In this document: positions 1-9,261 of the stretch, piece by piece
Numbering within the stretch: position 1 is the stretch's first letter
How the letters are laid out: each line of letters begins with the position of its first letter
From: a virus
Taxonomy: Duplodnaviria > Heunggongvirae > Uroviricota > Caudoviricetes
Direction: 5' to 3' (one strand)
Length of the DNA: 9,261 bases
IMG/VR virus record: IMGVR_UViG_2657245500_000015
Notes under the pieces: model-generated
What the model saw: only the letters and a program-made list of their open reading frames with translations
Told to the model about the DNA's origin: nothing
The model's database searches: none
Made by a program: the position numbers and the translations under genes

Positions 1-74
1 TTATCGTGAGAGTAATTCATCGGCACGTTAAATCATATCAGGCGTAATACCACAACCCTTAAGTTAGCGCTTAT

Positions 75-95
75 GGGGGGAAGTCCCCCTTTTTA
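75..95 (+). terminator. Putative rho-independent terminator
   Basis: G/C stem 76-80 (GGGGG) pairs with 85-89 (CCCCC), loop AAGT, followed by TTTTT at 90-94. Stop codons in all three + frames within 1-45 are consistent with a + strand gene ending just left of or at the window start. Confidence 0.4.
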
Positions 96-435
96 ACGTC
101 ATTTTATGCAGGGAATGTGTAGTTCTACACAGATTCTATGCAGTATCGGTATAGTCCCTTTTTATTCTAACTTATTGAAATATATAAAGAATCTGCAAAG
201 CCTCTTTTCAGGGAGCTATGCAGGGTGTTAGTCGTCCCTCTCCAGACACTACATATAGTGCTATATACAGGGCTATATAACGATATATAGATGTTTGGTC
301 ACATGGTGTAACTATCAAGAAACTTAATAGTTTCCTATGTGAAAGTTATTTCTGAGGGTGGGTAAGTGCTCAGGAGATTTCATGAGGATAATTCTTATCC
401 GAATCATCACGTAGAACACGCTTAAGCACAGATAC

Positions 436-458
436 AAAAAAGCCCCCATGAAGGAGGC
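436..458 (-). terminator. Putative rho-independent terminator of the recombinase gene
   Basis: On the minus strand the RNA reads GCCUCC-UUCAU-GGGGGC (6-bp stem with one G-U pair) followed by UUUUUU; it lies 27 nt downstream of the recombinase stop at 485. Confidence 0.55.
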
Positions 459-484
459 TATGAATCTATGCAGGTGATGAGAAA

Positions 485-1051
485 TTATTCAGCTTTAATA
501 CGCTGTACAGTTGACTTGGCAACGTTGAATTGAGCGGCTACTTTAGCGATTGAACTACCAGCAGCAAGAGCAGCTTTAATACCTTCTCTGTCAACCGCTT
601 TACCGTTACCCCTTCCAACTACACGACCAGCAGCTTTAGCAGCTTCATAACCTTCTCTTTGACGCTCAAGCATCATTTTACGTTCAGCTTCAGCCACTGC
701 TGAAAAGATTGTGAGAATCATCTTAGACGTGGGGTTATCGTCACCAGTTATCAGACCTTCTTTGTGAAAGTGAACCTTGATACCTTTCTGTGAAAGTTTA
801 TCCACCAGCGTTAATACATCCACGGTAGAGCGCCCTAAACGTGACAGGTCGTGTACATGGATAGTGTCACCTTCACGAACATAATCGAGCATAGCCTTTA
901 GTTGTGGACGGTCTGTATTCTTCCCAGATGCTTTATCAGTAAATACCTTATCCAGTACGACCCCTTCAAGTTGACGGTCTGTAATCTGCTGGATTGATGA
1001 AACTCGAACATAACCAATGTTAGCCATAATATACTCATTTGCCTTACTCAT
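485..1051 (-). CDS. Serine recombinase, resolvase/invertase family
   Basis: N-terminus MANIGYVRVSSIQQ matches the catalytic-serine motif of Hin/Gin/gamma-delta resolvase; also FTDKASG, DLSRLGRS, ILTIFSAVAEAER E-helix, and a C-terminal HTH (SSIAKVAAQFNVAKSTVQRI). The likely true start is the internal Met at 1027 (MANIGY...), since the ATG at 1051 has no SD. Confidence 0.9.
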   Translation of the reverse strand: MSKANEYIMANIGYVRVSSIQQITDRQLEGVVLDKVFTDKASGKNTDRPQLKAMLDYVREGDTIHVHDLSRLGRSTVDVLTLVDKLSQKGIKVHFHKEGLITGDDNPTSKMILTIFSAVAEAERKMMLERQREGYEAAKAAGRVVGRGNGKAVDREGIKAALAAGSSIAKVAAQFNVAKSTVQRIKAE

Positions 1052-1071
1052 TTGATGGATTGAGTATAACG

Positions 1072-1153
1072 TACCGATAAAGTGTTTTACAAGGCTAATC
1101 GGTATGGTTTTTACAGGGGGTTAGCTATACCTTTTTAGTATGCTATATCGGTA
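1072..1153. promoter_or_regulatory. Candidate recombinase binding (res/crossover-like) region upstream of the recombinase gene
   Basis: Inverted pair TACCGAT (1072-1078) and ATCGGTA (1098-1104), a further ATCGGTA at 1147-1153, and direct GTTTTACAAGG / GGTTTTTACAGG motifs. Its position just 5' of the recombinase gene is typical for res sites. Not validated. Confidence 0.25.
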
Positions 1154-1519
1154 TGCCTAAGAGATGGAGATGCCTTTACAGCAACTCACATAGAAAGTCA
1201 ATAGATATTTGGCTTTTTTGCAAAGGGGGTCACATAGCTGGTGTGACGGGTACTTAGCAGGTATAGACCTGTGATAGATATTTTCGAAGATTCGGGGAAG
1301 ATGAGATTCAAAGAGGGCTAGTCATTTTTTATAAAAATTTTCAGACTCTGAAAAGTTACTGTACAGATTTTATACAGATATCTTTAAAGTATCTGTAAAG
1401 ACTTTTAAGATAAGAGATAGATATCCCAGAAAGGATATCCGTTTAGAAAACCTGTTAAGTATCTCTTAAAAGAGAGTAAACCTTGTCAATAGTGATTGCA
1501 ATAAAAATTTTTATTTCTT

Positions 1520-2182
1520 ATGTCAATTGAGCATATTTTAATCGGGAAACATCATGGGGGTTCTGATTACTGGAGAACTCCATTTCTTATATTCCGCAAT
1601 TTGCACCGTGAGTTTAGTTTCAGTCTGGATGGTGCTGCAACTGAGCATGACACGCTGTTACCACGATTCACCAATGATATTCACAATCAGTCATGGGATG
1701 GTGAACGGGTGTTCTGTAACCCACCATACAGCGACACTAAAACATTCCTCCTAAAAGCCGCTGAAGCGGATTTAGCGGTATTCCTGATACCGTACCGACC
1801 CCACACCACATACTGGCTTAAGCACCTCTTCACAAACCCGCTTTGCCATGAAATCCGTATTCTTCATCGTGCAGTTAAATACCTTCCACCAGCAGGGCAT
1901 AACGGGCTTGCTATTAGGTCACCGTTTGCAAGTGCAATTGTCATCTTTAAAACTGAGCCACGCAGACATGAAATTACGCAGATGATTTGCTGTGCTGATA
2001 CATTGCTACCGTTAACCATCATTAACAGAGGAGGCTTAAGAGGAAGACCCACCATTTACCCACCTGAGACGCTCGACAGCTTCATAAAGCTATACAGGCA
2101 AGGAAAACCCATTAAGTGCATTGCAGATGCTCTCAGAATGCCTCTGAGCACGTCATACAGGATTGCGCAAAGGTTGAGCTAA
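1520..2182 (+). CDS. Dam-family DNA N6-adenine methyltransferase with C-terminal invertase-type HTH domain
   Basis: WRTP, FSLDGAATEHDTLLPRF, VFCNPPYSD and VFLIPYRP motifs are typical of phage (T1-type) Dam methyltransferases. The last ~55 aa (NRGGLRGRPT...LYRQGKPIKCIADALRMPLSTSYRIAQRL) match the GRP plus HTH C-terminal domain of Hin/Gin-type serine recombinases. No obvious SD before the ATG at 1520. Confidence 0.8.
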   Translation: MSIEHILIGKHHGGSDYWRTPFLIFRNLHREFSFSLDGAATEHDTLLPRFTNDIHNQSWDGERVFCNPPYSDTKTFLLKAAEADLAVFLIPYRPHTTYWLKHLFTNPLCHEIRILHRAVKYLPPAGHNGLAIRSPFASAIVIFKTEPRRHEITQMICCADTLLPLTIINRGGLRGRPTIYPPETLDSFIKLYRQGKPIKCIADALRMPLSTSYRIAQRLS

Positions 2183-2286
2183 AATTCTCATAAATATGGC
2201 CATTTACAAGACAGGTGATTTAGATATTAAGAAGTATCCCTGTGAACAATAAATGACCAATCAGTAATTATTCTGTGAAATAATTG

Positions 2287-2315
2287 TTGCAATCTATAAT
2301 CACACATGATATAGT
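2287..2315 (+). promoter_or_regulatory. Candidate sigma70 promoter (TTGCAA-N17-TATAGT) upstream of the replication gene
   Basis: TTGCAA at 2287-2292, 17-bp spacer, TATAGT at 2310-2315. Confidence 0.35.
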
Positions 2316-2548
2316 TTCATAGTGGGCTGATAAAAAAGTTCATGTCTTGAAGTGGTAACACTTGGGGAGGTGTCAGATGATTGACGTCAACAAGACCTCT
2401 CATTCAGGGTAATTACCTCAGCGTTTTAATCATCGTACTGTTTCAGGCATGGACTTCTTTATCAGTCCATCAATCCCCCAGATATTTTAATCACACAGGC
2501 TAATCGGTTTTATCCGGTTGGCCTTTTCACGTATGAGGTAATTTATGA

Positions 2549-3487
2549 ATGTCTAAATATAACCCAAATCAGTTTTATAAATTTGATGTGCGAATCTCTC
2601 AGCTTTCAGAAGAAATTAACGCAGCAGCAAGATTAATTTATATGGTCATGGTTCATAGCTGTGATTTCTATGAAGAGAAGTACAAAGCATATTCACCAAG
2701 TATTGACCATCTAGCTTATATGGCTGGTGTTTCAAAGAGAACGGCAATCAGAGCTATTGAGACACTTGAGAAACACGGTTTAATTCAGGTGCAAAAGAAT
2801 CAGGGTCGTCAAAGCACTTATCGTGTATTCACACTGGATGATAAGCCGGAATTACTTGTAAGACCTACATCACAGGAAGTTGCAGCCTCAGTAAGACAAA
2901 ATGACACCACTACCAGTGACAAAATGTCATCAGTACCAGTGACAAAATGTCATGGGGGTAGTGACAAAATGTCACCCGTGTTAGATAAGTTATTAGATAA
3001 AACATTAGATAATAATATTATAGATAAGAGTAAAGATACTGAACTTGATGTTGGTATCAATGAAGATGATTTTCTTTCTTTGGATGAATTAAATGATTTT
3101 CTCTCTATGAATGAATCTGACCTTGATAGTGAAGCTACTAAAGAGACCTCTAAAACATCTGACTTAGAGGAAGATAAAATCTCTGATGTGAATGAAGTTA
3201 GTGACCAGCAAGATACACCTTGCCGCCTCGAATCAACTGATGATGAATTACCGGATGTTGACCTTGATGATGAAGAAGACCCTGAAGAGGAATTGAAACG
3301 TGAACAGCGTAAAGCAGAAATTAAAGAAAGATTCAGAAAGGCAAAGCTAAAGAACAGGATTGATGAACTTGATGACTTTGATGATAGTGACGATGATTTT
3401 ACTTTTACACCAAAAAAGAAAACTCACACCGAGCCAAAGAAAGAAAAAGTTAAAGTCAGACGTGTTTATGCTGGAGGAATGTTTTAA
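2549..3487 (+). CDS. Replication initiator protein (N-terminal HTH DNA-binding domain, acidic C-terminal tail)
   Basis: N-terminal region (SIDHLAYMAGVSKRTAIRAIETLEKHGLI) resembles HTH-type phage/plasmid replication initiators. Four iterons and an AT-rich tract lie inside the coding sequence, as in lambda O/ori. SD GAGG at 2534-2537. The C-terminal third is highly acidic low-complexity sequence. Confidence 0.8.
   Translation: MSKYNPNQFYKFDVRISQLSEEINAAARLIYMVMVHSCDFYEEKYKAYSPSIDHLAYMAGVSKRTAIRAIETLEKHGLIQVQKNQGRQSTYRVFTLDDKPELLVRPTSQEVAASVRQNDTTTSDKMSSVPVTKCHGGSDKMSPVLDKLLDKTLDNNIIDKSKDTELDVGINEDDFLSLDELNDFLSMNESDLDSEATKETSKTSDLEEDKISDVNEVSDQQDTPCRLESTDDELPDVDLDDEEDPEEELKREQRKAEIKERFRKAKLKNRIDELDDFDDSDDDFTFTPKKKTHTEPKKEKVKVRRVYAGGMF
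2893..2975. repeat. Iteron array: four copies of the palindromic motif (a)GTGACAAAATGTCA(t) at ~23-bp spacing
   Basis: GACAAAATG cores at 2895-2903 (degenerate copy AGACAAAATGACA), 2918-2926, 2941-2949 and 2963-2971. Each full site has dyad symmetry (TGACA-AAA-TGTCA). The 23/23/22-bp period is about two helical turns. Confidence 0.7.
2981..3029. other. AT-rich tract with repeated TTAGATAA (putative DNA unwinding element of the origin)
   Basis: TTAGATAA at 2981-2988, 2993-3000 and 3005-3012 (12-bp period), and TAGATAAG at 3022-3029, immediately downstream of the iterons. Same order (iterons then AT-rich) as lambda ori. Confidence 0.5.
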
Positions 3488-3777
3488 TGAAAGAATATAA
3501 CGGTGAAAAACGATACAAAGATTATCTATTAAGGCGCTACAGCATTTCTCGTGAAGGTCATCTTCTGAAAGATACTCATGGGGAGGTTTACCGGATTCGA
3601 CCGAAGAAGGAAGGAAAGAATTATTTCTTTTTTGATGGTGTGACAGATTTAAAGATTGACGCTTTGAGGTTTGCAGTGATGTATCATTTTGATGTCTGGG
3701 ATTCAGTCCACCAGCTACGATTAAAAGACGGTGACCCCGGTAATCTGAAGGCCACCAATATCATCACAAAACGTTAG
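3487..3777 (+). CDS. Hypothetical small protein, NUMOD4/HNH_3-like (possibly degenerate HNH)
   Basis: The ATG overlaps the replication gene stop (TAATG coupling) and GGAGGA SD lies at 3471-3476. YSISREGHLL, ALRFAVMYHF and LRLKDGDPGNLKATN parallel the Y.VSN.GRV / HRLV / HIDGNK.NN.NL pattern of small HNH homing-endonuclease-like proteins, but the conserved His positions appear replaced. Confidence 0.6.
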   Translation: MKEYNGEKRYKDYLLRRYSISREGHLLKDTHGEVYRIRPKKEGKNYFFFDGVTDLKIDALRFAVMYHFDVWDSVHQLRLKDGDPGNLKATNIITKR

Positions 3778-3959
3778 TTTGTTTTACCATCATCAATCGT
3801 AATTGTGATTTCATATTTGAAAAGCTTAATGCTGAAATTGAATCGTGTACTTTTGGCGATAATCATTTTTAAAAGCTGATACACCAGAAGCACCAGAAAC
3901 ACAAAGCAACCTAAGCTTGCGAATCTGTGAGATTCAGCAATTGTTTCAAGAAAGCCCAT
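3774..3959 (-). CDS. Small hydrophobic (probable membrane) protein, 61 aa
   Basis: Minus-strand ORF with a predicted transmembrane stretch (LGCFVFLVLLVYQLL). SD-like AAGGGGA 5 nt upstream of the ATG, and a candidate minus-strand promoter at 4011-4038. Its 3' end overlaps the convergent ORF ending at 3777. Confidence 0.4.
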   Translation of the reverse strand: MGFLETIAESHRFASLGCFVFLVLLVYQLLKMIIAKSTRFNFSIKLFKYEITITIDDGKTN

Positions 3960-4010
3960 TAATTCCCCTTATTTATCAAAGGGAATGACCTGTATCAGCC
4001 CCTATAACCA

Positions 4011-4038
4011 TAATATCATGTAAATGAGATGTTGACAA
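4011..4038 (-). promoter_or_regulatory. Candidate minus-strand sigma70 promoter (TTGTCA-N16-TATTAT)
   Basis: The reverse complement of 4033-4038 is TTGTCA and of 4011-4016 is TATTAT, with a 16-bp spacer. It would drive the small hydrophobic ORF 3959->3774. Confidence 0.35.
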
Positions 4039-4060
4039 TATGTTAAATAAATGTTAAGAT
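4032..4060 (+). promoter_or_regulatory. Candidate sigma70 promoter (TTGACA-N17-TAAGAT) for the 4097-4812 operon
   Basis: TTGACA at 4032-4037, 17-bp spacer, TAAGAT at 4055-4060. Its -35 overlaps the -35 of the divergent minus-strand promoter. Confidence 0.4.
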
Positions 4061-4096
4061 TGTAGTATGAGTAAGAGATTTAAGGAGATTTTTACA

Positions 4097-4387
4097 ATGA
4101 CTCACACAGTTACGCGCCTTTTGCCAGAGGCATTTGAACGACTGGCAGCAATCAAAGCCAAATATCCCGATATGAAGCACACAGCGCTTGTTGCAGAGGT
4201 TTTAAAAGAGCCGGTAGACTTGACCCCTTTCGATAACGTTAAGGGCGTTGCAGAGGGTTCTAAGGCCATCAGAATCACAACGGGCCAACTGGAACTACTC
4301 AAAGCACAGTCCGCAGTAGCAGGTTGCTCAATGATTCAGGTCTTAAGCGCAAAGGTTCATCAATTAGCGGATAAGCTGGGGGTTTAA
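4097..4387 (+). CDS. Hypothetical DNA-binding protein, ribbon-helix-helix-like (possibly two tandem RHH motifs)
   Basis: The start is moved to the ATG at 4097 because of the AAGGAG SD at 4082-4087 (the ATG at 4067 sits on the promoter). TVTRLLPEAFERLAAIKAKY...HTALVAEVL and IRITTGQLELLKAQSAVAG...MIQVLSAKV each fit a beta-strand/helix/helix RHH pattern. Confidence 0.65.
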   Translation: MTHTVTRLLPEAFERLAAIKAKYPDMKHTALVAEVLKEPVDLTPFDNVKGVAEGSKAIRITTGQLELLKAQSAVAGCSMIQVLSAKVHQLADKLGV

Positions 4388-4812
4388 TGCTATGTACATT
4401 TGATTATCATGCGTTTTATCGACATAGAGGTCATCTTGTCCGTGAGAATAACGGAACATGGAAAGATTTAACTCGTAATGCTGAACCCTTCACACACCAG
4501 CAATTAAAATCCCGCTTCTCCAGATGGAAGAATGCACCAGCAGATACTGGTGATTTTGAGATTATCCATACCTTCGATTATGCCTCAGAAGATGACCTTC
4601 ACGATGCAATTAAGCTGATTGAAGACTTCAATACCTCAGAAAATGTGGATGGTGACAAATATAAATCCCGTGGTAACCGCTATAACCGTGATGATATCAC
4701 TCAGGCCATAAATGCTGGTCAATCTCAGCGATACATTACAGAAAAATATGGTATTTCACGGAGACAGTATTTCTACGTTAAATCATTGATTAATAAAGAC
4801 AATTCAAAATAA
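4387..4812 (+). CDS. Hypothetical protein with C-terminal helix-turn-helix
   Basis: The ATG overlaps the upstream stop (TAATG), indicating translational coupling. C-terminal ITQAINAGQSQRYITEKYGISRRQYFYV resembles resolvase/HTH_23-type HTH motifs. Confidence 0.65.
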   Translation: MLCTFDYHAFYRHRGHLVRENNGTWKDLTRNAEPFTHQQLKSRFSRWKNAPADTGDFEIIHTFDYASEDDLHDAIKLIEDFNTSENVDGDKYKSRGNRYNRDDITQAINAGQSQRYITEKYGISRRQYFYVKSLINKDNSK

Positions 4813-4971
4813 CCATCTCAGTAACGGTAGAATGCACTTTACAGGCAGAGTTGCACCTTAATTTGATAAATTACCTTACCAGCCAGTGCAACTCCCTCTG
4901 TAACCCGCATGGTTACTGGCCTCAGAATGGCTATTTTAAGAGGTCTGAGATGTGTTTTAGAGGAATTTAAA

Positions 4972-5295
4972 ATGAGCAATTACGAATTACAGATTTTCGT
5001 TGATAACGACACCGCTATGATGATTCAGGCTTTCAGTGATTCCGGTGTATCAATTGATTTTGACAGGCTGTTAAAGCTGATGGCTGATAATGCAGAAAAC
5101 ATCTCTGACTTTATTCAGTCGGTGGAGTTTAACGAGCCTCGAATGATGCTACCAATTACCGACTCAAACATGAAAAGATTGGTTATCGAGCAAACGAACA
5201 AACACAGTATTTCCCCAGAGCAATTTTTGAAAGGTGCTGTGACAATCCTGCACAGCGATAATATTCTGGTGACGGATTCTATGAGGGTTCACTAA
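4972..5295 (+). CDS. Hypothetical protein (107 aa)
   Basis: The start is placed at the ATG at 4972, preceded by GAGGA at 4959-4963; the longer ORF from 4909 has no SD. No family recognised. Confidence 0.6.
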   Translation: MSNYELQIFVDNDTAMMIQAFSDSGVSIDFDRLLKLMADNAENISDFIQSVEFNEPRMMLPITDSNMKRLVIEQTNKHSISPEQFLKGAVTILHSDNILVTDSMRVH

Positions 5296-5372
5296 TGGGA
5301 TTGATAATTGCTTGGACAGCTTTAGGTTTATTTGTTGGTTGCTGGGTGGGCAACACAGTAAATAAGAATTGA
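5295..5372 (+). CDS. Possible 25-aa hydrophobic peptide (MGLIIAWTALGLFVGCWVGNTVNKN)
   Basis: The ATG overlaps the stop of the upstream gene (TAATG at 5293-5297). The peptide is a single predicted transmembrane helix. Below the size cut-off of the ORF track. Confidence 0.3.
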   Translation: MGLIIAWTALGLFVGCWVGNTVNKN

Positions 5373-5396
5373 TGTTACCAATCTGTTAAAAAGCTG

Positions 5397-5425
5397 TTGA
5401 CAAATAACCTTAAGCATGGCATAAT
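5397..5425 (+). promoter_or_regulatory. Consensus-like sigma70 promoter (TTGACA-N17-CATAAT)
   Basis: TTGACA at 5397-5402, 17-bp spacer, CATAAT at 5420-5425; predicted transcription start near 5432. Confidence 0.5.
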
Positions 5426-5620
5426 TGTATATATGAGGATAGTCTTCTATCCGAAGTCTATAGGAAGAGCAATTTTTCCTAAAATCATATTTTCAATAAT
5501 CCGATGGATGGATATTCTGAGTTGGAAAGGTGCAATGCTTTTCGTCATGGCCTTTCAGTTTAGTCTGAGAGGTCATCTCAAAAAGTGCTTAATCATTCAT
5601 TATTGAACCCTTACAGCTTT

Positions 5621-5650
5621 GCCCTAACTCATGATTAGGGCGTTTTCTTT
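5621..5650 (+). terminator. Rho-independent terminator
   Basis: Stem GCCCTAA (5621-5627) pairs with TTAGGGC (5635-5641), 7-nt loop, followed by GTTTTCTTT. About 220 nt downstream of the 5397 promoter. Confidence 0.55.
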
Positions 5651-5720
5651 AAGAGTTTTGAAACAGAGCTTTTAAAGAAAGTTTTCCTGAAACTTCGTTA
5701 ACGTTATAAGCAAACCTTCA

Positions 5721-5755
5721 AAGCCCTTCACAGATTATGTTTAGGGCTTTTCTTA
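5721..5755 (+). terminator. Second terminator-like hairpin
   Basis: AAGCCCT (5721-5727) pairs with AGGGCTT (5743-5749), 15-nt loop, followed by TTCTT. Weaker than the first because of the large loop. Confidence 0.3.
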
Positions 5756-5851
5756 ATAGAGCATCTTTAATAAATCGTTAAGTCATCTTCTAAGTGTATT
5801 GGCGTTGAAGGTGCTCTATTAAGAAATAACCACACTTAGAGGAAAAAAATA

Positions 5852-6562
5852 ATGACAAACGATATTTACATTAATGGCAAAGTGATTGATAGCTTCGGTG
5901 ACTGGTCACCACAGACTGAACATCCAGCTATCGCTATTCAGCGCAAAGAGCACGATGCGAGAATTGCACTTGAGCAATCGCTAAAGATGACACCAAAGGA
6001 AATTACCTTTGTGGCTCCTGAACCTCAAGAGATGCCCGATATTGGCAAAACTGAAGCATTATTTAATCTTGAGCGCGAATATTACCCACAGTTAAAAGAA
6101 CAGCGCCTTAGATTAGATGACGCTTACAGCAAAGTTACCTTGATGCAATCAGCTATTGAGCCGTCAGAATTTGAGATTCAGGATGAATTGTCACAGAAAC
6201 CATTTGTCTATTACCAATACGAAGACAATGATGGTTTTGGTACTTTTCCAGAAAACATCACAGGCGTGATTAGTAGTCTTCCTGATGGATATCGAATTGT
6301 GAAGATGGTTAAAGCTTCAAGAGGTGCTGGTCAGTTTATTTACATGACCAATAAGAGCGATGAAGAACTCCGTGAAATTGCCAGACAGAACATCTTGGCA
6401 TCACGTAACAAGCAACTTGAAAATGTTAAGTTGTATCTCTCAAGAGAGCTTCAGGCTATGAAAGAGCTTGTTAGTGAATATGAGTCGCAGAAGAAGATTG
6501 CTATGCAAGCCGATATTGAGCAGCTTACGAAGATTTCTCAGAAGTATAGCAAAGCGATTTAA
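5852..6562 (+). CDS. Hypothetical protein (236 aa, C-terminal predicted coiled coil)
   Basis: Long ORF with SD AGAGG at 5838-5842 and ATG at 5852. No family recognised. Confidence 0.75.
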   Translation: MTNDIYINGKVIDSFGDWSPQTEHPAIAIQRKEHDARIALEQSLKMTPKEITFVAPEPQEMPDIGKTEALFNLEREYYPQLKEQRLRLDDAYSKVTLMQSAIEPSEFEIQDELSQKPFVYYQYEDNDGFGTFPENITGVISSLPDGYRIVKMVKASRGAGQFIYMTNKSDEELREIARQNILASRNKQLENVKLYLSRELQAMKELVSEYESQKKIAMQADIEQLTKISQKYSKAI

Positions 6563-6578
6563 TTTAAGTGAGGTGAGA

Positions 6579-6794
6579 ATGATTGATTTGCAACAGCGTT
6601 ATGAAACTATTAAGTCGGCTTGTGAAAACTTAAAGTTACAAACCAAGCCAGCCTTAAGAATTAAAACCAAACATCAAATTATCACCTCACACAAACCAAA
6701 AACACGCAAGATTCCAAAGTGGTGTATTGACCGTATTCCTTCTGATGCTCAAATCATAGGTGAAACGGAATTACATTATCTTGTCCGACATTAA
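6579..6794 (+). CDS. Hypothetical small basic protein (71 aa)
   Basis: ATG at 6579 preceded by GAGGTGA at 6568-6574. The longer ORF from 6468 overlaps the preceding gene and lacks an SD. Confidence 0.5.
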   Translation: MIDLQQRYETIKSACENLKLQTKPALRIKTKHQIITSHKPKTRKIPKWCIDRIPSDAQIIGETELHYLVRH

Positions 6795-6821
6795 AAAAGA
6801 ATTGGTTGGGTAAAAATCAAC

Positions 6822-6863
6822 GGGAGAGATTATCGAGTGATATCGGTAGTTTCTCCCTTTTTT
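6822..6863 (+). terminator. Putative terminator hairpin with T-run
   Basis: GGGAGA (6822-6827) pairs with TCTCCC (6852-6857), followed by TTTTTT at 6858-6863. The loop is long (24 nt), so stability is uncertain. Confidence 0.4.
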
Positions 6864-6870
6864 GTATGTG

Positions 6871-6913
6871 TGCTACGTGAAATCTTCTGAACAGATATAC
6901 CCACCAAAAATTA
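6871..6913. repeat. Direct repeat copy R1 (TGCTACGTGA-AAT-CTTCTGAACAGATA...AAAAATTA)
   Basis: About 43 bp, near-identical to 9110-9152: blocks TGCTACGTGA (10/10), CTTCTGAACAGATA (14/14) and CAAAAATTA match, with a short variable linker. R1 is additionally bounded by the 7-bp inverted repeat GCTACGT (6872-6878) / ACGTAGC (6920-6926). Confidence 0.7.
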
Positions 6914-6954
6914 TTTTTTACGTAGCTCACGCTTAAAGAGGTGAAAAAATATGA

Positions 6955-9021
6955 ATGGCACAATTTAAAGTTGATGATTTTCTGATTGAGCTAGGTTTTA
7001 ACTCTCAGAGGGTTTTAAAAGGTCTGGAAAAAGCCGAGAAACAAACGATGCAGGTAGCATCACGAATTGAGAAGCGATTGAATAAAGCTTTTAAAGTTAA
7101 CCCTACGCCTTTAAATGATTCTCTCAAGGTCATGGAAAGAAATGTCGATAAAACTGTTTCCAAGATTGAGCAGCGTCTTAAAAACACTAAAGCGTTTAAG
7201 ATTAAAACGGAAATTGAGGATACTTTAAAGCCACTTAGACAACCGAGACAGCCACGAATTAGCGGAAGCAGAGCAATTACAGCAGCGCATAGCGTGAATA
7301 TGAGCAAGCTTCGTGACTTTAATCCTATGCTTGAGAAGTATTTTAAAAGCCAGTATTACAGCTTAAGCAGTAAATCCAAGACACTTGGAAACGAAGCTTT
7401 TAATCGTGAGTTAGCAAAATTAAATCAATCTCTTCGTGAAACACTTTCTAAGTTTAACAAGACCACCAGCAAAAATAATCACAGTGAAAATGCTTCGAAT
7501 GGTCTGGATGTATTAGCTACGAGTGCAATCAAAGCAGGTACAGCCATTTATAGTTTTCAGACAGCCTTAGAAGCTTACAGGCGGATTATGGAGGTTGGTC
7601 TGAAAAAAGAAGCATCACAACGAGCGGCACAATTCGTTTTAGGTGATGAAGGTGCTAAACGAGCTACAGAATTTGTTAAGAATCTTGCTGATAGTAGTGG
7701 TGTAGACCAGATTGAAACATTAAGCAGTTTTGCTAAGTTTTCCGCTGGTGCTGGTGATATGAATGCAGACCAGAAAGAATCCTTATTTTCTAATGTGATT
7801 GGTACATCCAGATTAATGGGGCTAAGCACCGATGAAATTAACGGGATTTTAAAAGCTTTCGAGCAGATGGCATCTAAAGGAAAGATTCAGGCTGAAGAGC
7901 TACGCGGTCAATTAGGTGACAGAATGGCAGGTGCTTTTCAGTTATTTGCCAGAAGTCTTGGGATGACTACGGAAGAATTAGACAAGGCTATGAAAGACGG
8001 TAAGGTTCTTTCTAAAGATGTTCTCCCTAAAGTATCCGCTGAAATGGGAAAGATGATTGATAAAGCGGGAGGATGGGAAAAGATTATTAACTCTACTCAG
8101 ACGCAGTTAGGCCGCTTAAGTAATTCATGGAATAATAATTTGGCCTTAATGTTCGATGGTTCACAGGAAGGTTTAACAGACTTTACAAGGTCACTGACTA
8201 ATTTACTTAATTCACTGGGTGGTCAATCTAAAAATCTTGGTGAACATTTTGGCGACTTGATGAAAAGCATGTCAAACGGTATTGATGATTTAACCACGAT
8301 TAGCTACCGAGTGCAGGGATTCTTTGACAGAGTGACCCTTGCTTACAGAGAATTAAATGACACTCAAAAAGCTGTAGCTGATGGTATCGCAAATGGCCTG
8401 TTAAGTGCATTAAAGGGACTTGCTGGTATTGTCGCTGTAAGGTCTGGTATTGGTGCTGTAGGTGGTATCTGGAACTTAATTAGGGCTATTTCCACGCTTG
8501 GGAATGTAGCAAATACAGCAGCAGGAAGAATTAATTCACGTTCTGGTGGTGTTGAAAGTGGAAAAAGTAGGCTATCTGTAGCTGATGCAATTACCAGAGT
8601 AATGATTGTCGGTATGACAACTGATGTGATTAATGCCATTGTCAAACCGTTCTATGAACGTCAGATGAGTAAGTCAGATAATCCGATTGATAAAGTTGTA
8701 AGGTCAAAGGTGGAACCCACAGACCAGGCATTAACTGGTGACATGAACTCTTTAGCCGCTGTTTTATGGGCTATGGTTCATGGCAAATCAAAAGATGTTC
8801 CACAGTTTTCACCTGAAGCATTAAATAATCTAAAAGGTCGAGTGGAAACATTCACACAAGATTTAAAGGTTATCAAGCCGTCAGTAAATATTCAGCCTCA
8901 GACAATCAATATCACAACTCAGACGGTACTTGATGGAAAGGTTATTGATGAAAGAACCACATCGCATATTAATCGTATGCAGGAAGATACCTTGATTAGC
9001 TCAGCTTACCCAGAGGAATAA
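6955..9021 (+). CDS. Tape-measure-domain protein (phage tail tape measure-like), 688 aa
   Basis: The segment FEQMASKGKIQAEELRGQLGDRMAGAFQLFARSLGMTTEELDKAMKDGKVLSKDVLPKVSAEMGK matches the conserved tape-measure domain pattern (SKGK.Q.EEL..QL..R.PGA.Q..A...G....EL...M..GK.L...VLP). A Gly-rich hydrophobic segment (GLAGIVAVRSGIGAVGGIWNLI) is typical of tape-measure proteins. SD AAAGAGGTGA at 6936-6945. Confidence 0.85.
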   Translation: MAQFKVDDFLIELGFNSQRVLKGLEKAEKQTMQVASRIEKRLNKAFKVNPTPLNDSLKVMERNVDKTVSKIEQRLKNTKAFKIKTEIEDTLKPLRQPRQPRISGSRAITAAHSVNMSKLRDFNPMLEKYFKSQYYSLSSKSKTLGNEAFNRELAKLNQSLRETLSKFNKTTSKNNHSENASNGLDVLATSAIKAGTAIYSFQTALEAYRRIMEVGLKKEASQRAAQFVLGDEGAKRATEFVKNLADSSGVDQIETLSSFAKFSAGAGDMNADQKESLFSNVIGTSRLMGLSTDEINGILKAFEQMASKGKIQAEELRGQLGDRMAGAFQLFARSLGMTTEELDKAMKDGKVLSKDVLPKVSAEMGKMIDKAGGWEKIINSTQTQLGRLSNSWNNNLALMFDGSQEGLTDFTRSLTNLLNSLGGQSKNLGEHFGDLMKSMSNGIDDLTTISYRVQGFFDRVTLAYRELNDTQKAVADGIANGLLSALKGLAGIVAVRSGIGAVGGIWNLIRAISTLGNVANTAAGRINSRSGGVESGKSRLSVADAITRVMIVGMTTDVINAIVKPFYERQMSKSDNPIDKVVRSKVEPTDQALTGDMNSLAAVLWAMVHGKSKDVPQFSPEALNNLKGRVETFTQDLKVIKPSVNIQPQTINITTQTVLDGKVIDERTTSHINRMQEDTLISSAYPEE

Positions 9022-9109
9022 ACAATGTTAGAGCTACTAATATTTATTGCCACACATGGCAATCTATTAATCTTTATCTAGTATGACGATTCAACTATGA
9101 ATAGTCGAA

Positions 9110-9152
9110 TGCTACGTGATTTCTTCTGAACAGATACCAACATCAAAAATTA
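9110..9152. repeat. Direct repeat copy R2
   Basis: Near-identical to R1 (6871-6913); lies 89 bp downstream of the tape-measure gene stop. It lacks the right-hand ACGTAGC inverted-repeat arm seen at R1. Confidence 0.7.
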
Positions 9153-9261
9153 GATGAACCGCCCCGGGTTTCCTGGAGAGTGTTTTATCTGTGAACTCAG
9201 GCTGCCAGATCATTGTTTCCGATGGAAGCATAATAAGCTTTTTCTGCTTCTGCCGGAGGAG
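9112..9261 (-). CDS. Possible 3' end of a minus-strand gene continuing beyond the window (partial)
   Basis: The minus-strand frame is open for 49 codons from the window edge to a TAG at 9112-9114 (...LIFDVGICSEEIT*). The last ~110 bp are about 50% GC by manual count, against roughly 40% elsewhere. A + strand frame from the ATG at 9154 is also open, so strand and reality are uncertain. Confidence 0.25.
   Translation of the reverse strand, partial: LLRQKQKKLIMLPSETMIWQPEFTDKTLSRKPGAVHLIFDVGICSEEIT

What the first reader, a model, noticed from the sequence alone, without database searches (positions are those of the whole stretch)
4097..4812. Translationally coupled pair: RHH-like protein (two RHH-like halves) plus a 141-aa protein with C-terminal HTH
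The 96-aa product contains two successive segments that each fit the ribbon-helix-helix pattern (TVTRLLPEAFERLAAIKAKY...ALVAEVL and IRITTGQLELLKAQSAVAG...MIQVLSAKV); tandem RHH in one chain is uncommon and known from proteins such as TraY. The downstream gene starts on the stop codon (TAATG) and ends in a resolvase-like HTH. The pair resembles regulator or antitoxin-first two-gene modules, but neither protein matches a family I can name.
Basis: inference. Interest (0 to 1): 0.5.

Follow-up and report, generated by a model that had tools for sequence, protein, structure and literature searches.

The report
Single-chain double-RHH regulator plus HTH partner
The 96-aa gene most likely encodes a rare one-chain "double" ribbon-helix-helix DNA-binding protein that controls two promoters of a small phage-parasite-like island in E. 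coli and its relatives, and the gene coupled to it is an exchangeable DNA-binding accessory protein, not a toxin.

Summary

New here: 7-bp direct repeats (A/C)TGTTRA lie at 11-bp phase over the -35/-10 of P1 (4018-4057, in front of the pair and over a divergent promoter). They recur at a second strong promoter, P2 (5372-5400). In about 286 kb of related loci, such phased chains occur at P1 and P2 of every island variant, plus one extra pair in the L008 P1 leader. The RHH beta-strands are nearly invariant in homologues only 24% identical.

The gene after the RHH gene is exchangeable: N-domain plus HTH, N-domain alone, or an HNH-like protein. That argues against a toxin-antitoxin pair.

Best reading: an autoregulating single-chain RHH regulator of a PLE-like island that carries a serine integrase, tape measure and Dit-like protein. 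DNA binding is inferred, not shown. Moderate interest.

The parts
4097..4387 (+). Gene for the 96-aa single-chain tandem ribbon-helix-helix protein ('RHH2'). Unit 1 is residues 3-36, the linker is 38-55 and unit 2 is residues 57-94.
4387..4812 (+). Gene for the 141-aa protein. It has an orphan N-terminal beta-rich domain (about residues 1-83), a linker, and a C-terminal three-helix HTH (residues 101-138).
4375..4389 (+). Coupling junction GGGGGTTTAATG: a G-rich SD-like run followed by overlapping TAA stop and ATG start.
   Evidence: Sequence. Conserved in window, L001-L003, L009 and L013. Variants GGAGGTTTAATG (L008) and AGGTATTTAATG (L010) keep the overlap. In HNH-slot variants the junction is GGAGGTCTGATTATG.
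4018..4057 (+). Candidate operator O1: four same-orientation 7-bp repeats at 4018 (ATGTAAA), 4029 (ATGTTGA), 4040 (ATGTTAA) and 4051 (ATGTTAA), spaced 11 bp apart.
   Evidence: Three overlapping matches against 0.04 expected by chance. The repeat cores are invariant while the 4-nt spacers vary between islands. Phased chains occur at P1 and P2 of every island variant (one extra pair in the L008 P1 leader) in about 286 kb of loci, both strands.
4032..4060 (+). Promoter P1 for the pair: TTGACA, 17 nt, TAAGAT, with TG extension. The -35 lies inside repeat 2 and the -10 overlaps repeat 4.
   Evidence: 10 of 12 matches. Conserved in relatives.
4010..4038 (-). Divergent leftward promoter (TTGTCA, 17 nt, TATTAT). 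Its -35 overlaps that of P1, and repeats 1-2 lie in its spacer and -35.
3774..3959 (-). Divergent 61-aa hydrophobic protein gene. Its SD lies in the 3' arm of a 5'-UTR hairpin (3962-3986).
   Evidence: A 58-62-aa minus-strand gene occupies the same position in most island variants examined.
5372..5400 (+). Candidate operator O2: ATGTTAC (5372), CTGTTAA (5383) and CTGTTGA (5394), spaced 11 bp apart. The third repeat contains the -35 of P2.
5397..5425 (+). Promoter P2 (TTGACA, 17 nt, CATAAT, with TG extension), the best sigma-70-like site in the window. It heads an ORF-less leader of about 420 nt upstream of the 236-aa gene, the tape-measure gene and the genes beyond.
   Evidence: 11 of 12 matches. 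Leader fold z = -3.3. Terminator-like site at 5620-5650.

Best explanation
The 96-aa protein is a monomeric 'pseudo-dimer' RHH transcription factor. Its two unlike beta-strands form one ribbon inside a single chain. Because that reading head is asymmetric, it should recognise an asymmetric site, and several monomers should line up head-to-tail on one face of the DNA.

The proposed sites are the same-orientation (A/C)TGTTRA repeats, spaced 11 bp apart.
- At P1 they cover the -35, spacer and -10 of the protein's own promoter, and the -35 and spacer of the divergent promoter. The protein would therefore repress itself and the leftward 61-aa gene.
- At P2 the same repeats sit on and just upstream of the -35 of the promoter that leads towards the tail-gene block. 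This ties both operons of the island to one regulator.

The 141-aa gene sits in an exchangeable slot just downstream, behind a conserved stop/start overlap. It encodes an orphan domain, here fused to a resolvase-type HTH. Its role is inferred to be an accessory DNA-binding or modulating protein of the island, not a toxin.

Shown: gene reality, the predicted folds, the repeats and their specificity to these promoters, and the variable slot. Inferred: that the RHH protein is what binds the repeats, the sign of regulation, and any role of the 141-aa protein.
For: - Operator: phased repeats are found 3 times against 0.04 expected. In about 286 kb of related loci, both strands, chains of TGTT[AG][AC] at 10-11 bp occur at P1 and P2 of each island, plus one extra inverted pair in the L008 P1 leader.
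- P1 and P2 are the two best plus-strand sigma-70-like sites in the window.
- Repeat cores are invariant while the spacers between them vary.
- Protein-DNA match: homologues at only 24% identity (hhalign probability 96.5%) keep the same DNA repeats. They also keep the beta-strand residues T4, T6, R7, R59 and I60.
- The RHH protein is the only predicted DNA-binder present in every variant that carries the repeats. The HTH is absent in L003, L013 and L014, and the small recombinase is absent in L013.
- The Rep iterons are a different sequence located inside the rep gene.
- Precedent: F TraY monomers form a train on adjacent sites (PMC12117103).
Against: - No binding experiment exists.
- The AF2 confidence is only moderate (pLDDT 62.7) and comes from a shallow alignment.
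- There is no sequence link to any RHH family.
- The two halves show no detectable sequence similarity to each other.
- The conserved 107-aa protein (4972-5295) looks by eye like another beta-alpha-alpha protein and could not be modelled, so it is a competing candidate binder.
- From my own knowledge, TGTTAA-N5-TGTTAA resembles boxes of host response regulators such as PhoP (TGTTTA-N5-TGTTTA).
- In L008- and L010-type islands the P1 repeats lie upstream of the -35 rather than over the -10, so the sign of regulation may differ between variants.
Confidence: 0.6

Rival explanations
1. The repeats are real regulatory sites but are read by something else. Candidates are the HTH of the 141-aa protein, the conserved 107-aa protein, or a host response regulator of the OmpR/PhoB/PhoP type that binds 10-11-bp direct repeats. 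The 96-aa RHH protein would then have another target.
For: - Direct repeats at 11-bp phase near the -35 are typical of winged-helix response regulators (own knowledge).
- The 107-aa protein is conserved in all variants and lies just upstream of P2.
- The 141-aa protein has a confident HTH.
Against: - The HTH is missing in L003, L013 and L014, yet the repeats persist.
- The putative strand residues of the 107-aa family vary between subfamilies (23-25% identity), while the DNA motif does not.
- Both promoters already have consensus -35 hexamers and TG-extended -10s. They therefore look repressible rather than activator-dependent.
- In the roughly 286 kb examined, the phased chains lie only at these island promoters and not in the flanking chromosome.
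Confidence: 0.15
2. The 96-aa protein is mainly architectural, like TraY. A train of monomers on phased repeats would bend DNA to help excision/integration by the serine recombinases, replication, or packaging. The HTH protein would be its partner, and transcription effects would be secondary.
For: - TraY is the best structural match, and it forms trains on adjacent sites.
- The island has two serine recombinases and needs a directionality factor.
- The HTH resembles resolvase and small-terminase HTHs.
Against: - In every variant both repeat clusters coincide with the -35 of strong promoters. They do not coincide with the island ends, the rep iterons or any nic-like site.
- There are no homologues on 72,556 plasmids.
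- There is no sequence relation to TraY.
Confidence: 0.12
3. The pair is a type II toxin-antitoxin or abortive-infection module, with an RHH antitoxin first and the 141-aa protein as toxin.
For: - The arrangement fits: two small coupled genes, RHH first, probably autoregulated.
- The N-domain has conserved polar residues R19, N21 and D27.
Against: - There are no toxin or defence family hits.
- The RHH protein has no tail beyond its two RHH units.
- The partner is swapped behind near-identical RHH genes and is replaced by an HNH-like protein in other island variants, including the one with the largest RHH cluster.
- The putative toxin carries a DNA-binding HTH.
Confidence: 0.05
4. The RHH protein, with or without its partner, mainly acts on a helper phage. 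It would repress phage promoters, as PLE CapR represses ICP1 capsid genes, and its binding to island promoters would be only autoregulation.
For: - The island resembles Vibrio PLE satellites: a large serine recombinase plus its own tape measure and baseplate-type protein.
- The exchangeable slot would suit helper-specific effectors.
Against: - No helper phage is known.
- No phage genome was searched for the repeats.
- Nothing in the present data requires a phage target.
Confidence: 0.08

Closest known systems
F-plasmid TraY (relaxosome accessory protein, PDB 9f0x)
   Same: - It has two RHH units in one polypeptide that act as a monomeric pseudo-dimer.
- It binds adjacent sites as a train of monomers (PMC12117103).
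   Different: - There is no detectable sequence relationship (hhalign probability 0.8%; no Pfam TraY hit).
- The window has no relaxase, no oriT-like nic site and no plasmid homologues.
- The protein here is shorter (96 against 131 aa).
- Its candidate sites overlap promoters.
Phage P22 Arc repressor (immI region) and engineered single-chain Arc (PDB 1u9p)
   Same: - It is a small RHH repressor encoded as the first gene of an operon whose promoter overlaps a divergent promoter.
- Two readers sit about 11 bp apart on one DNA face (own knowledge of the Arc-operator complex).
   Different: - Natural Arc is a homodimer that reads a pseudo-symmetric operator.
- Here a natural single chain is paired with same-orientation repeats.
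- There is no sequence similarity.
AvtR (archaeal lipothrixvirus regulator, PDB 4hv0); omega, CopG and ParG-type RHH repressors
   Same: - AvtR is also a natural tandem-RHH chain (76 residues aligned).
- Omega and ParG bind arrays of short direct repeats in promoters (PDB titles; own knowledge).
   Different: - AvtR is archaeal-viral and unrelated in sequence.
- Omega, CopG and ParG are homodimers.
- No partition ATPase or plasmid copy-control context is present here.
Resolvase / sigma region 4 / small-terminase type three-helix HTH proteins (HTH_7, HTH_23, HTH_28)
   Same: - The C-terminal 40 residues of the 141-aa protein superpose at 1.1-1.2 A.
- Relatives give weak HTH_7, HTH_28 and Sigma70_r4 hits.
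   Different: - There is no catalytic recombinase domain.
- The N-terminal domain is an orphan.
- All Pfam scores are below the curated cut-offs.
Vibrio cholerae PLE phage satellites (context only)
   Same: The island has a large serine recombinase, a replication initiator, a small membrane protein, HNH-like small proteins, ORF-less spaces, and its own tape measure plus a baseplate-type protein (PMC12987554, PMC9410903).
   Different: - It occurs in other hosts (Escherichia, Salmonella, Citrobacter).
- No sequence homology to PLE genes was tested.
- No helper phage or mobilisation is known.
- According to PMC13060381, PLE repression is attributed mainly to H-NS, not to an RHH protein.

Membership tests
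Ribbon-helix-helix (MetJ/Arc) superfamily | A beta-alpha-alpha unit, two of which form a two-stranded antiparallel ribbon | tested here: met
Ribbon-helix-helix (MetJ/Arc) superfamily | A significant match to a curated RHH sequence family | tested here: not met
   No Pfam, NCBIfam or PHROG family at E<=1. No PDB sequence hit.
TraY family | Tandem RHH in one chain | tested here: met
TraY family | Sequence homology to TraY | tested here: not met
   hhalign of the family profile against F TraY gives probability 0.8%. The TraY sequence used was verified as identical to 9f0x_E.
TraY family | Association with a relaxase, an oriT and a conjugative plasmid | tested here: not met
   No relaxase gene in the island. 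No F-type nic site. No homologue on 72,556 plasmids. All E. coli copies are chromosomal.
Type II toxin-antitoxin module (RHH antitoxin) | Antitoxin with a toxin-binding extension beyond the DNA-binding domain | tested here: not met
   The two RHH units span residues 3-94 of 96. Only an 18-residue disordered linker is left over.
Type II toxin-antitoxin module (RHH antitoxin) | Partner belongs to a toxin family or fold | tested here: not met
Type II toxin-antitoxin module (RHH antitoxin) | Stable, co-inherited cognate pair | tested here: not met
   The slot holds a 141/130-aa, a 73-76-aa or an HNH_3-like 90-aa protein. 62 genomes carry the 141-aa gene against 127 with this RHH type.
Type II toxin-antitoxin module (RHH antitoxin) | Toxicity that is neutralised by the partner | not testable with these tools
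   Needs expression experiments.
Resolvase-type HTH (HTH_7 and related Pfam families) | Three-helix HTH fold | tested here: met
Resolvase-type HTH (HTH_7 and related Pfam families) | Score above the curated family cut-off | tested here: not met
   HTH_28 scores E 0.11 (13.1 bits against a cut-off of 25) for the window protein. Relatives reach E about 1e-3 but stay below the cut-offs.
PLE-like phage satellite (context of the pair) | Integrase, replication initiator and hijack-type structural genes in a small island without capsid or lysis genes | tested here: met
   The island is about 11 kb. It has a large serine recombinase, an HTH_36/O-like Rep with internal iterons, TMP_3 and Dit_like.
PLE-like phage satellite (context of the pair) | Helper-dependent induction, packaging and transfer | not testable with these tools
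   Needs infection experiments. The closest phage TMPs belong to Felix O1-like myoviruses at 28-29% identity.

The most novel reading that the evidence does not exclude
The 96-aa protein is the master switch of an undescribed family of PLE-like phage satellites in Escherichia, Salmonella and Citrobacter. It founds a new sequence family of natural single-chain RHH regulators. Monomers polymerise head-to-tail on phased TGTTRA repeats to hold both the early operon (P1) and the tail-gene operon (P2) silent until a helper phage relieves them. The exchangeable slot behind it, here the 141-aa N-domain plus HTH protein, encodes helper-specific sensors or effectors.
Probability: 0.3. Interest if true: 0.7.

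Novelty: new variant of a known kind. Interest (0 to 1): 0.5.

Why it matters
Natural single-chain double-RHH proteins are rare; TraY and AvtR are the usual examples. This family pairs that architecture with a clear, comparatively supported operator made of same-orientation repeats. That makes it a clean test case for how an asymmetric RHH reader recognises asymmetric DNA and assembles into arrays.

It also gives a handle on how a widespread island is regulated. Related sequence occurs in about 10% of complete E. coli genomes, and the island is also found in Salmonella and Citrobacter. I found no description of it in the literature searched. It carries its own tape measure and Dit-like genes next to a serine integrase, as the Vibrio PLE satellites do. 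If the island is a satellite, this regulator and its two promoters are where helper-phage sensing should be looked for.

Tried and rejected
- **Internal duplication.** hhalign of the N half against the C half of the 96-aa family finds nothing. The halves share a fold, not detectable sequence.
- **Membership in TraY.** hhalign finds no relation.
- **Weak viral hits L006 and L007.** These are chance word matches inside tail-fibre genes.
- **N-domain related to the island's NUMOD4/HNH-like small proteins.** The idea came from HNH and homing-endonuclease names among weak BFVD hits and a 'GHL[VL][RK]' motif seen by eye. hhalign rejects it.
- **N-domain in the PDB or Pfam.** Nothing found.
- **Exhaustive HMM search.** It only showed that the 141-aa family is tiny.
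- **Phage or plasmid homologues.** None for either protein in 50,697 phages (one marginal hit at E 0.06, otherwise nothing). None for the 96-aa protein in 72,556 plasmids; the 141-aa protein was not searched there.
- **F-type nic site.** Absent.
- **Repeats as Rep iterons.** Rejected. Different 15-bp iterons lie inside the rep gene, and island variants with a different first gene keep the repeats.
- **Known RNA families.** No Rfam family anywhere in the window.
- **afdb50 fold library.** Unavailable.
- **Literature.** Searches found no description of this island or protein pair.

Full report
**Context**

The window is a chromosomal island of the E. coli/Shigella type. Both ends are insertion sequences: an IS421-like element at about 1-100 and IS629 from 9144.

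Its genes, in order:
- a small serine recombinase (485-1051, minus strand)
- a Dam methylase with an HTH_7 tail (1520-2182)
- an HTH_36/O-like replication initiator (2549-3487) with four 15-bp iterons inside the gene
- a 96-aa protein that aligns with HNH_3-like proteins of related islands (3487-3777; A7; it has no HNH_3 hit itself)
- a divergent 61-aa hydrophobic protein (3774-3959, minus strand)
- the two target genes (4097-4387 and 4387-4812)
- a 107-aa protein (4972-5295)
- an ORF-less stretch
- a 236-aa gene (5852-6562)
- a tape measure protein (6955-9021)

An intact relative lies between yciI and tonB in E. coli EC20017429. It continues with a Dit-like 'baseplate' protein and a 506-aa large serine recombinase. 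Related sequence occurs in 569 of 5,426 complete E. coli genomes, always on the chromosome.

Variants sit at other chromosomal sites in E. coli, E. albertii, Citrobacter and Salmonella. All of them end in tape measure, Dit_like and a large serine recombinase.

**The observation**

Both ORFs are as described, and RefSeq calls them identically. An AAGGAG lies 9 nt before ATG 4097. The upstream ATG at 4067 is not conserved.

The TAA stop overlaps the next ATG. The junction GGGGGTTTAATG is kept across diverged variants. dN/dS is 0.1-0.25 for the first gene in informative pairs. For the second it is 0.06-0.38, on few substitutions.

Neither protein hits Pfam, PHROGs, NCBIfam or PADLOC or PDB sequences. 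Neither has homologues in 50,697 phage records, and the 96-aa protein has none in 72,556 plasmid records.

**Fold of the 96-aa protein**

AlphaFold2 used a 25-sequence alignment (pLDDT 62.7, pTM 0.56). It gives strand 3-7, helices 10-22 and 28-36, a disordered linker 38-55, then strand 57-61 and helices 62-75 and 79-94.

These are the only two strands, and DSSP scores both as bridged. They therefore pair with each other, which is the RHH ribbon made within one chain.

- The tandem proteins DndE and AvtR are also aligned over about 70 residues.
- Dozens of ordinary RHH proteins are aligned over one half only.

The tandem-RHH observation is therefore confirmed at the level of structure prediction.

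It is not a TraY family member. A family profile against F TraY gives hhalign probability 0.8%. I verified my recalled TraY sequence as identical to 9f0x_E. The two halves show no sequence similarity to each other.

**Fold of the 141-aa protein**

AF2 (pLDDT 62.9) gives a low-confidence beta-beta-beta-alpha-beta-alpha N-domain. It also gives a confident (pLDDT 83-87) three-helix C-terminal HTH.

An exhaustive profile search of 1.84 billion representatives found only 13 proteins at E<=1e-3. Two of them (P0056, P0061) have clearer resolvase/sigma-4-type HTHs. The N-domain matches nothing in the PDB or Pfam.

**A candidate operator**

The intergenic region holds a strong rightward promoter P1 (TTGACA, 17 nt, TAAGAT, TG-extended; 4032-4060). 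A divergent promoter shares its -35 region.

Four same-orientation 7-bp repeats lie across them, 11 bp apart: ATGTAAA at 4018, ATGTTGA at 4029, ATGTTAA at 4040 and ATGTTAA at 4051. The dimer pattern occurs 3 times against 0.04 expected by chance.

The same arrangement recurs at 5372, 5383 and 5394. There the third repeat holds the -35 of P2 (5397-5425), the best sigma-70-like site in the window.

In about 286 kb of fetched loci, both strands, chains of TGTT[AG][AC] at 10-11-bp spacing occur at P1 and P2 of every island variant. The only other chain is an inverted pair in the P1 leader of L008.

Between islands the repeat cores stay fixed while the 4-nt spacers change. The Rep iterons (AGTGACAAAATGTCA, 22-23-bp spacing, 2892-2974) are different.

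**Who reads the repeats**

A profile search widened the RHH family to 143 clusters of 92-97 aa. All are 'hypothetical', and the named ones all come from Escherichia, Shigella, Citrobacter and Salmonella. The 92-aa subfamily is 24% identical to the window protein (hhalign probability 96.5%), yet its islands keep the same DNA repeats.

Across 120 sequences (119 cluster representatives plus the window protein) the strands are almost invariant: H3-T4-[LV]-T6-R7 and K56-x-I58-R59-I60.

The RHH protein is the only predicted DNA-binder present in every variant. The HTH is absent where the slot holds only the N-domain (L003, L013, L014), and L013 lacks the small recombinase.

From this I infer that the single-chain RHH reads the repeats. 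An asymmetric ribbon fits same-orientation sites. TraY monomers are known to form a train on adjacent sites (PMC12117103).

At P1 the sites cover the -35, spacer and -10, and the divergent promoter's spacer and -35. This predicts autorepression and repression of the 61-aa gene. At P2, and at P1 of the L008/L010 types, the sites lie on and upstream of the -35, so the sign of regulation there is uncertain.

**The pair is not a fixed module**

Downstream of the RHH gene the slot holds one of three things:
- the N-domain plus HTH (141 or 130 aa)
- the N-domain alone (73-76 aa) followed by a 71-aa protein
- an HNH_3-like 90-aa protein followed by a 66-aa protein; seen in four loci (L015-L018), including the RHH cluster with the most member sequences (2,085), and in Salmonella

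L003 has an RHH protein 94% identical to the window's but a 76-aa partner. Among complete E. coli genomes, 127 carry this RHH gene type and 62 carry the 141-aa gene.

The RHH protein has no tail beyond its two units, and no toxin signal was found. Together with the swapping, this makes a toxin-antitoxin reading unlikely. The role of the 141-aa protein remains an inference: an accessory DNA-binding or modulating protein in a variable slot.

**Comparison with known systems**

The 96-aa protein works like TraY or AvtR in architecture and like Arc in promoter layout. It belongs to none of those families by sequence.

The island resembles Vibrio PLE satellites. PLEs have a large serine recombinase and encode their own tape measure, tail chaperone and baseplate hub, which build chimeric tails (PMC12987554). 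They also carry HNH-type NixI, a small membrane protein and ORF-less spaces (PMC9410903).

The island's tape measure is closest to those of Felix O1-like myoviruses, at 28-29% identity. I found no paper describing this island.

**Limits**

- The models have moderate confidence.
- There is no binding or expression data.
- The 107-aa protein (4972-5295) looks by eye like another double beta-alpha-alpha protein. It could not be modelled and has no sequence-based support. It remains a competing candidate for the repeats, although its putative strand residues vary while the DNA motif does not.
- A host response regulator cannot be excluded.

**Verdict**

This is a new sequence family with a rare but known architecture, plus a well-supported candidate operator. 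Interest is moderate.

Noticed in passing
window 100-9140; intact copy L001 about 18400-29350: The whole island may be an undescribed phage-satellite family in Enterobacteriaceae. It is about 11 kb and has a large serine recombinase, an O-like Rep, a tape measure (28-29% identical to Felix O1-like myovirus TMPs) and a Dit-like protein. It has no capsid or lysis genes. It integrates at several chromosomal sites, and related sequence is present in 569 of 5,426 E. coli genomes. Its organisation parallels Vibrio PLEs.
   Followed up: partly
window 5432-5851: P2 is followed by an ORF-less leader of about 420 nt. The leader contains a terminator-like hairpin (5620-5650) and further stem-loops. The first 224 nt fold better than all 200 shuffles (z = -3.3). 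There is no Rfam match. An equivalent ORF-less space exists in all island variants. It could be a small RNA or an antitermination-controlled leader.
   Followed up: partly
window 3962-3986 (minus-strand mRNA): A 5'-UTR hairpin (AUUCCCUUUG / UAAGGGGAAU) buries the Shine-Dalgarno of the divergent 61-aa hydrophobic protein gene. The arms change in a compensatory way in L009, L013 and L014. This suggests translational control of a small membrane protein, possibly toxin-like or LidI-like.
   Followed up: partly
window 4972-5295: The conserved 107-aa protein just upstream of P2 shows, by eye, two beta-alpha-alpha-like segments (LQIFVDNDTAMMIQAF... and MLPITDSNMKRLVIEQTNKHSISPEQFLKGAV). It may be a second tandem-RHH protein. 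No Pfam or PDB sequence support was found, and it could not be modelled.
   Followed up: partly
window 2892-2974 and 3066-3116: Four copies of AGTGACAAAATGTCA at 22-23-bp spacing lie inside the replication-initiator gene, followed by AT-rich repeats. This looks like a lambda-O-type origin embedded in its own initiator gene.
   Followed up: no
window 3487-3777; L017 10285-10557: Small proteins with an HNH_3-like C-terminal pattern recur in the island family. The 90-aa version that replaces the 141-aa gene in some variants hits Pfam HNH_3 (E 3.9e-5). The 96-aa version in the window has only a weak DUF7271 hit.
   Followed up: partly
window 6822-6867: A strong terminator-like hairpin (15-bp stem followed by a T-run) sits between the 71-aa ORF and the tape measure gene. 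Tape measure expression may therefore need read-through or a separate, unrecognised promoter.
   Followed up: no
window 1-100 and 9144-9261: Both ends of the window are insertion sequences (IS421-like and IS629). In this genome IS629 interrupts the island about 120 bp after the tape measure gene, upstream of where the Dit-like and integrase genes lie in intact copies. This copy may be immobilised.
   Followed up: no
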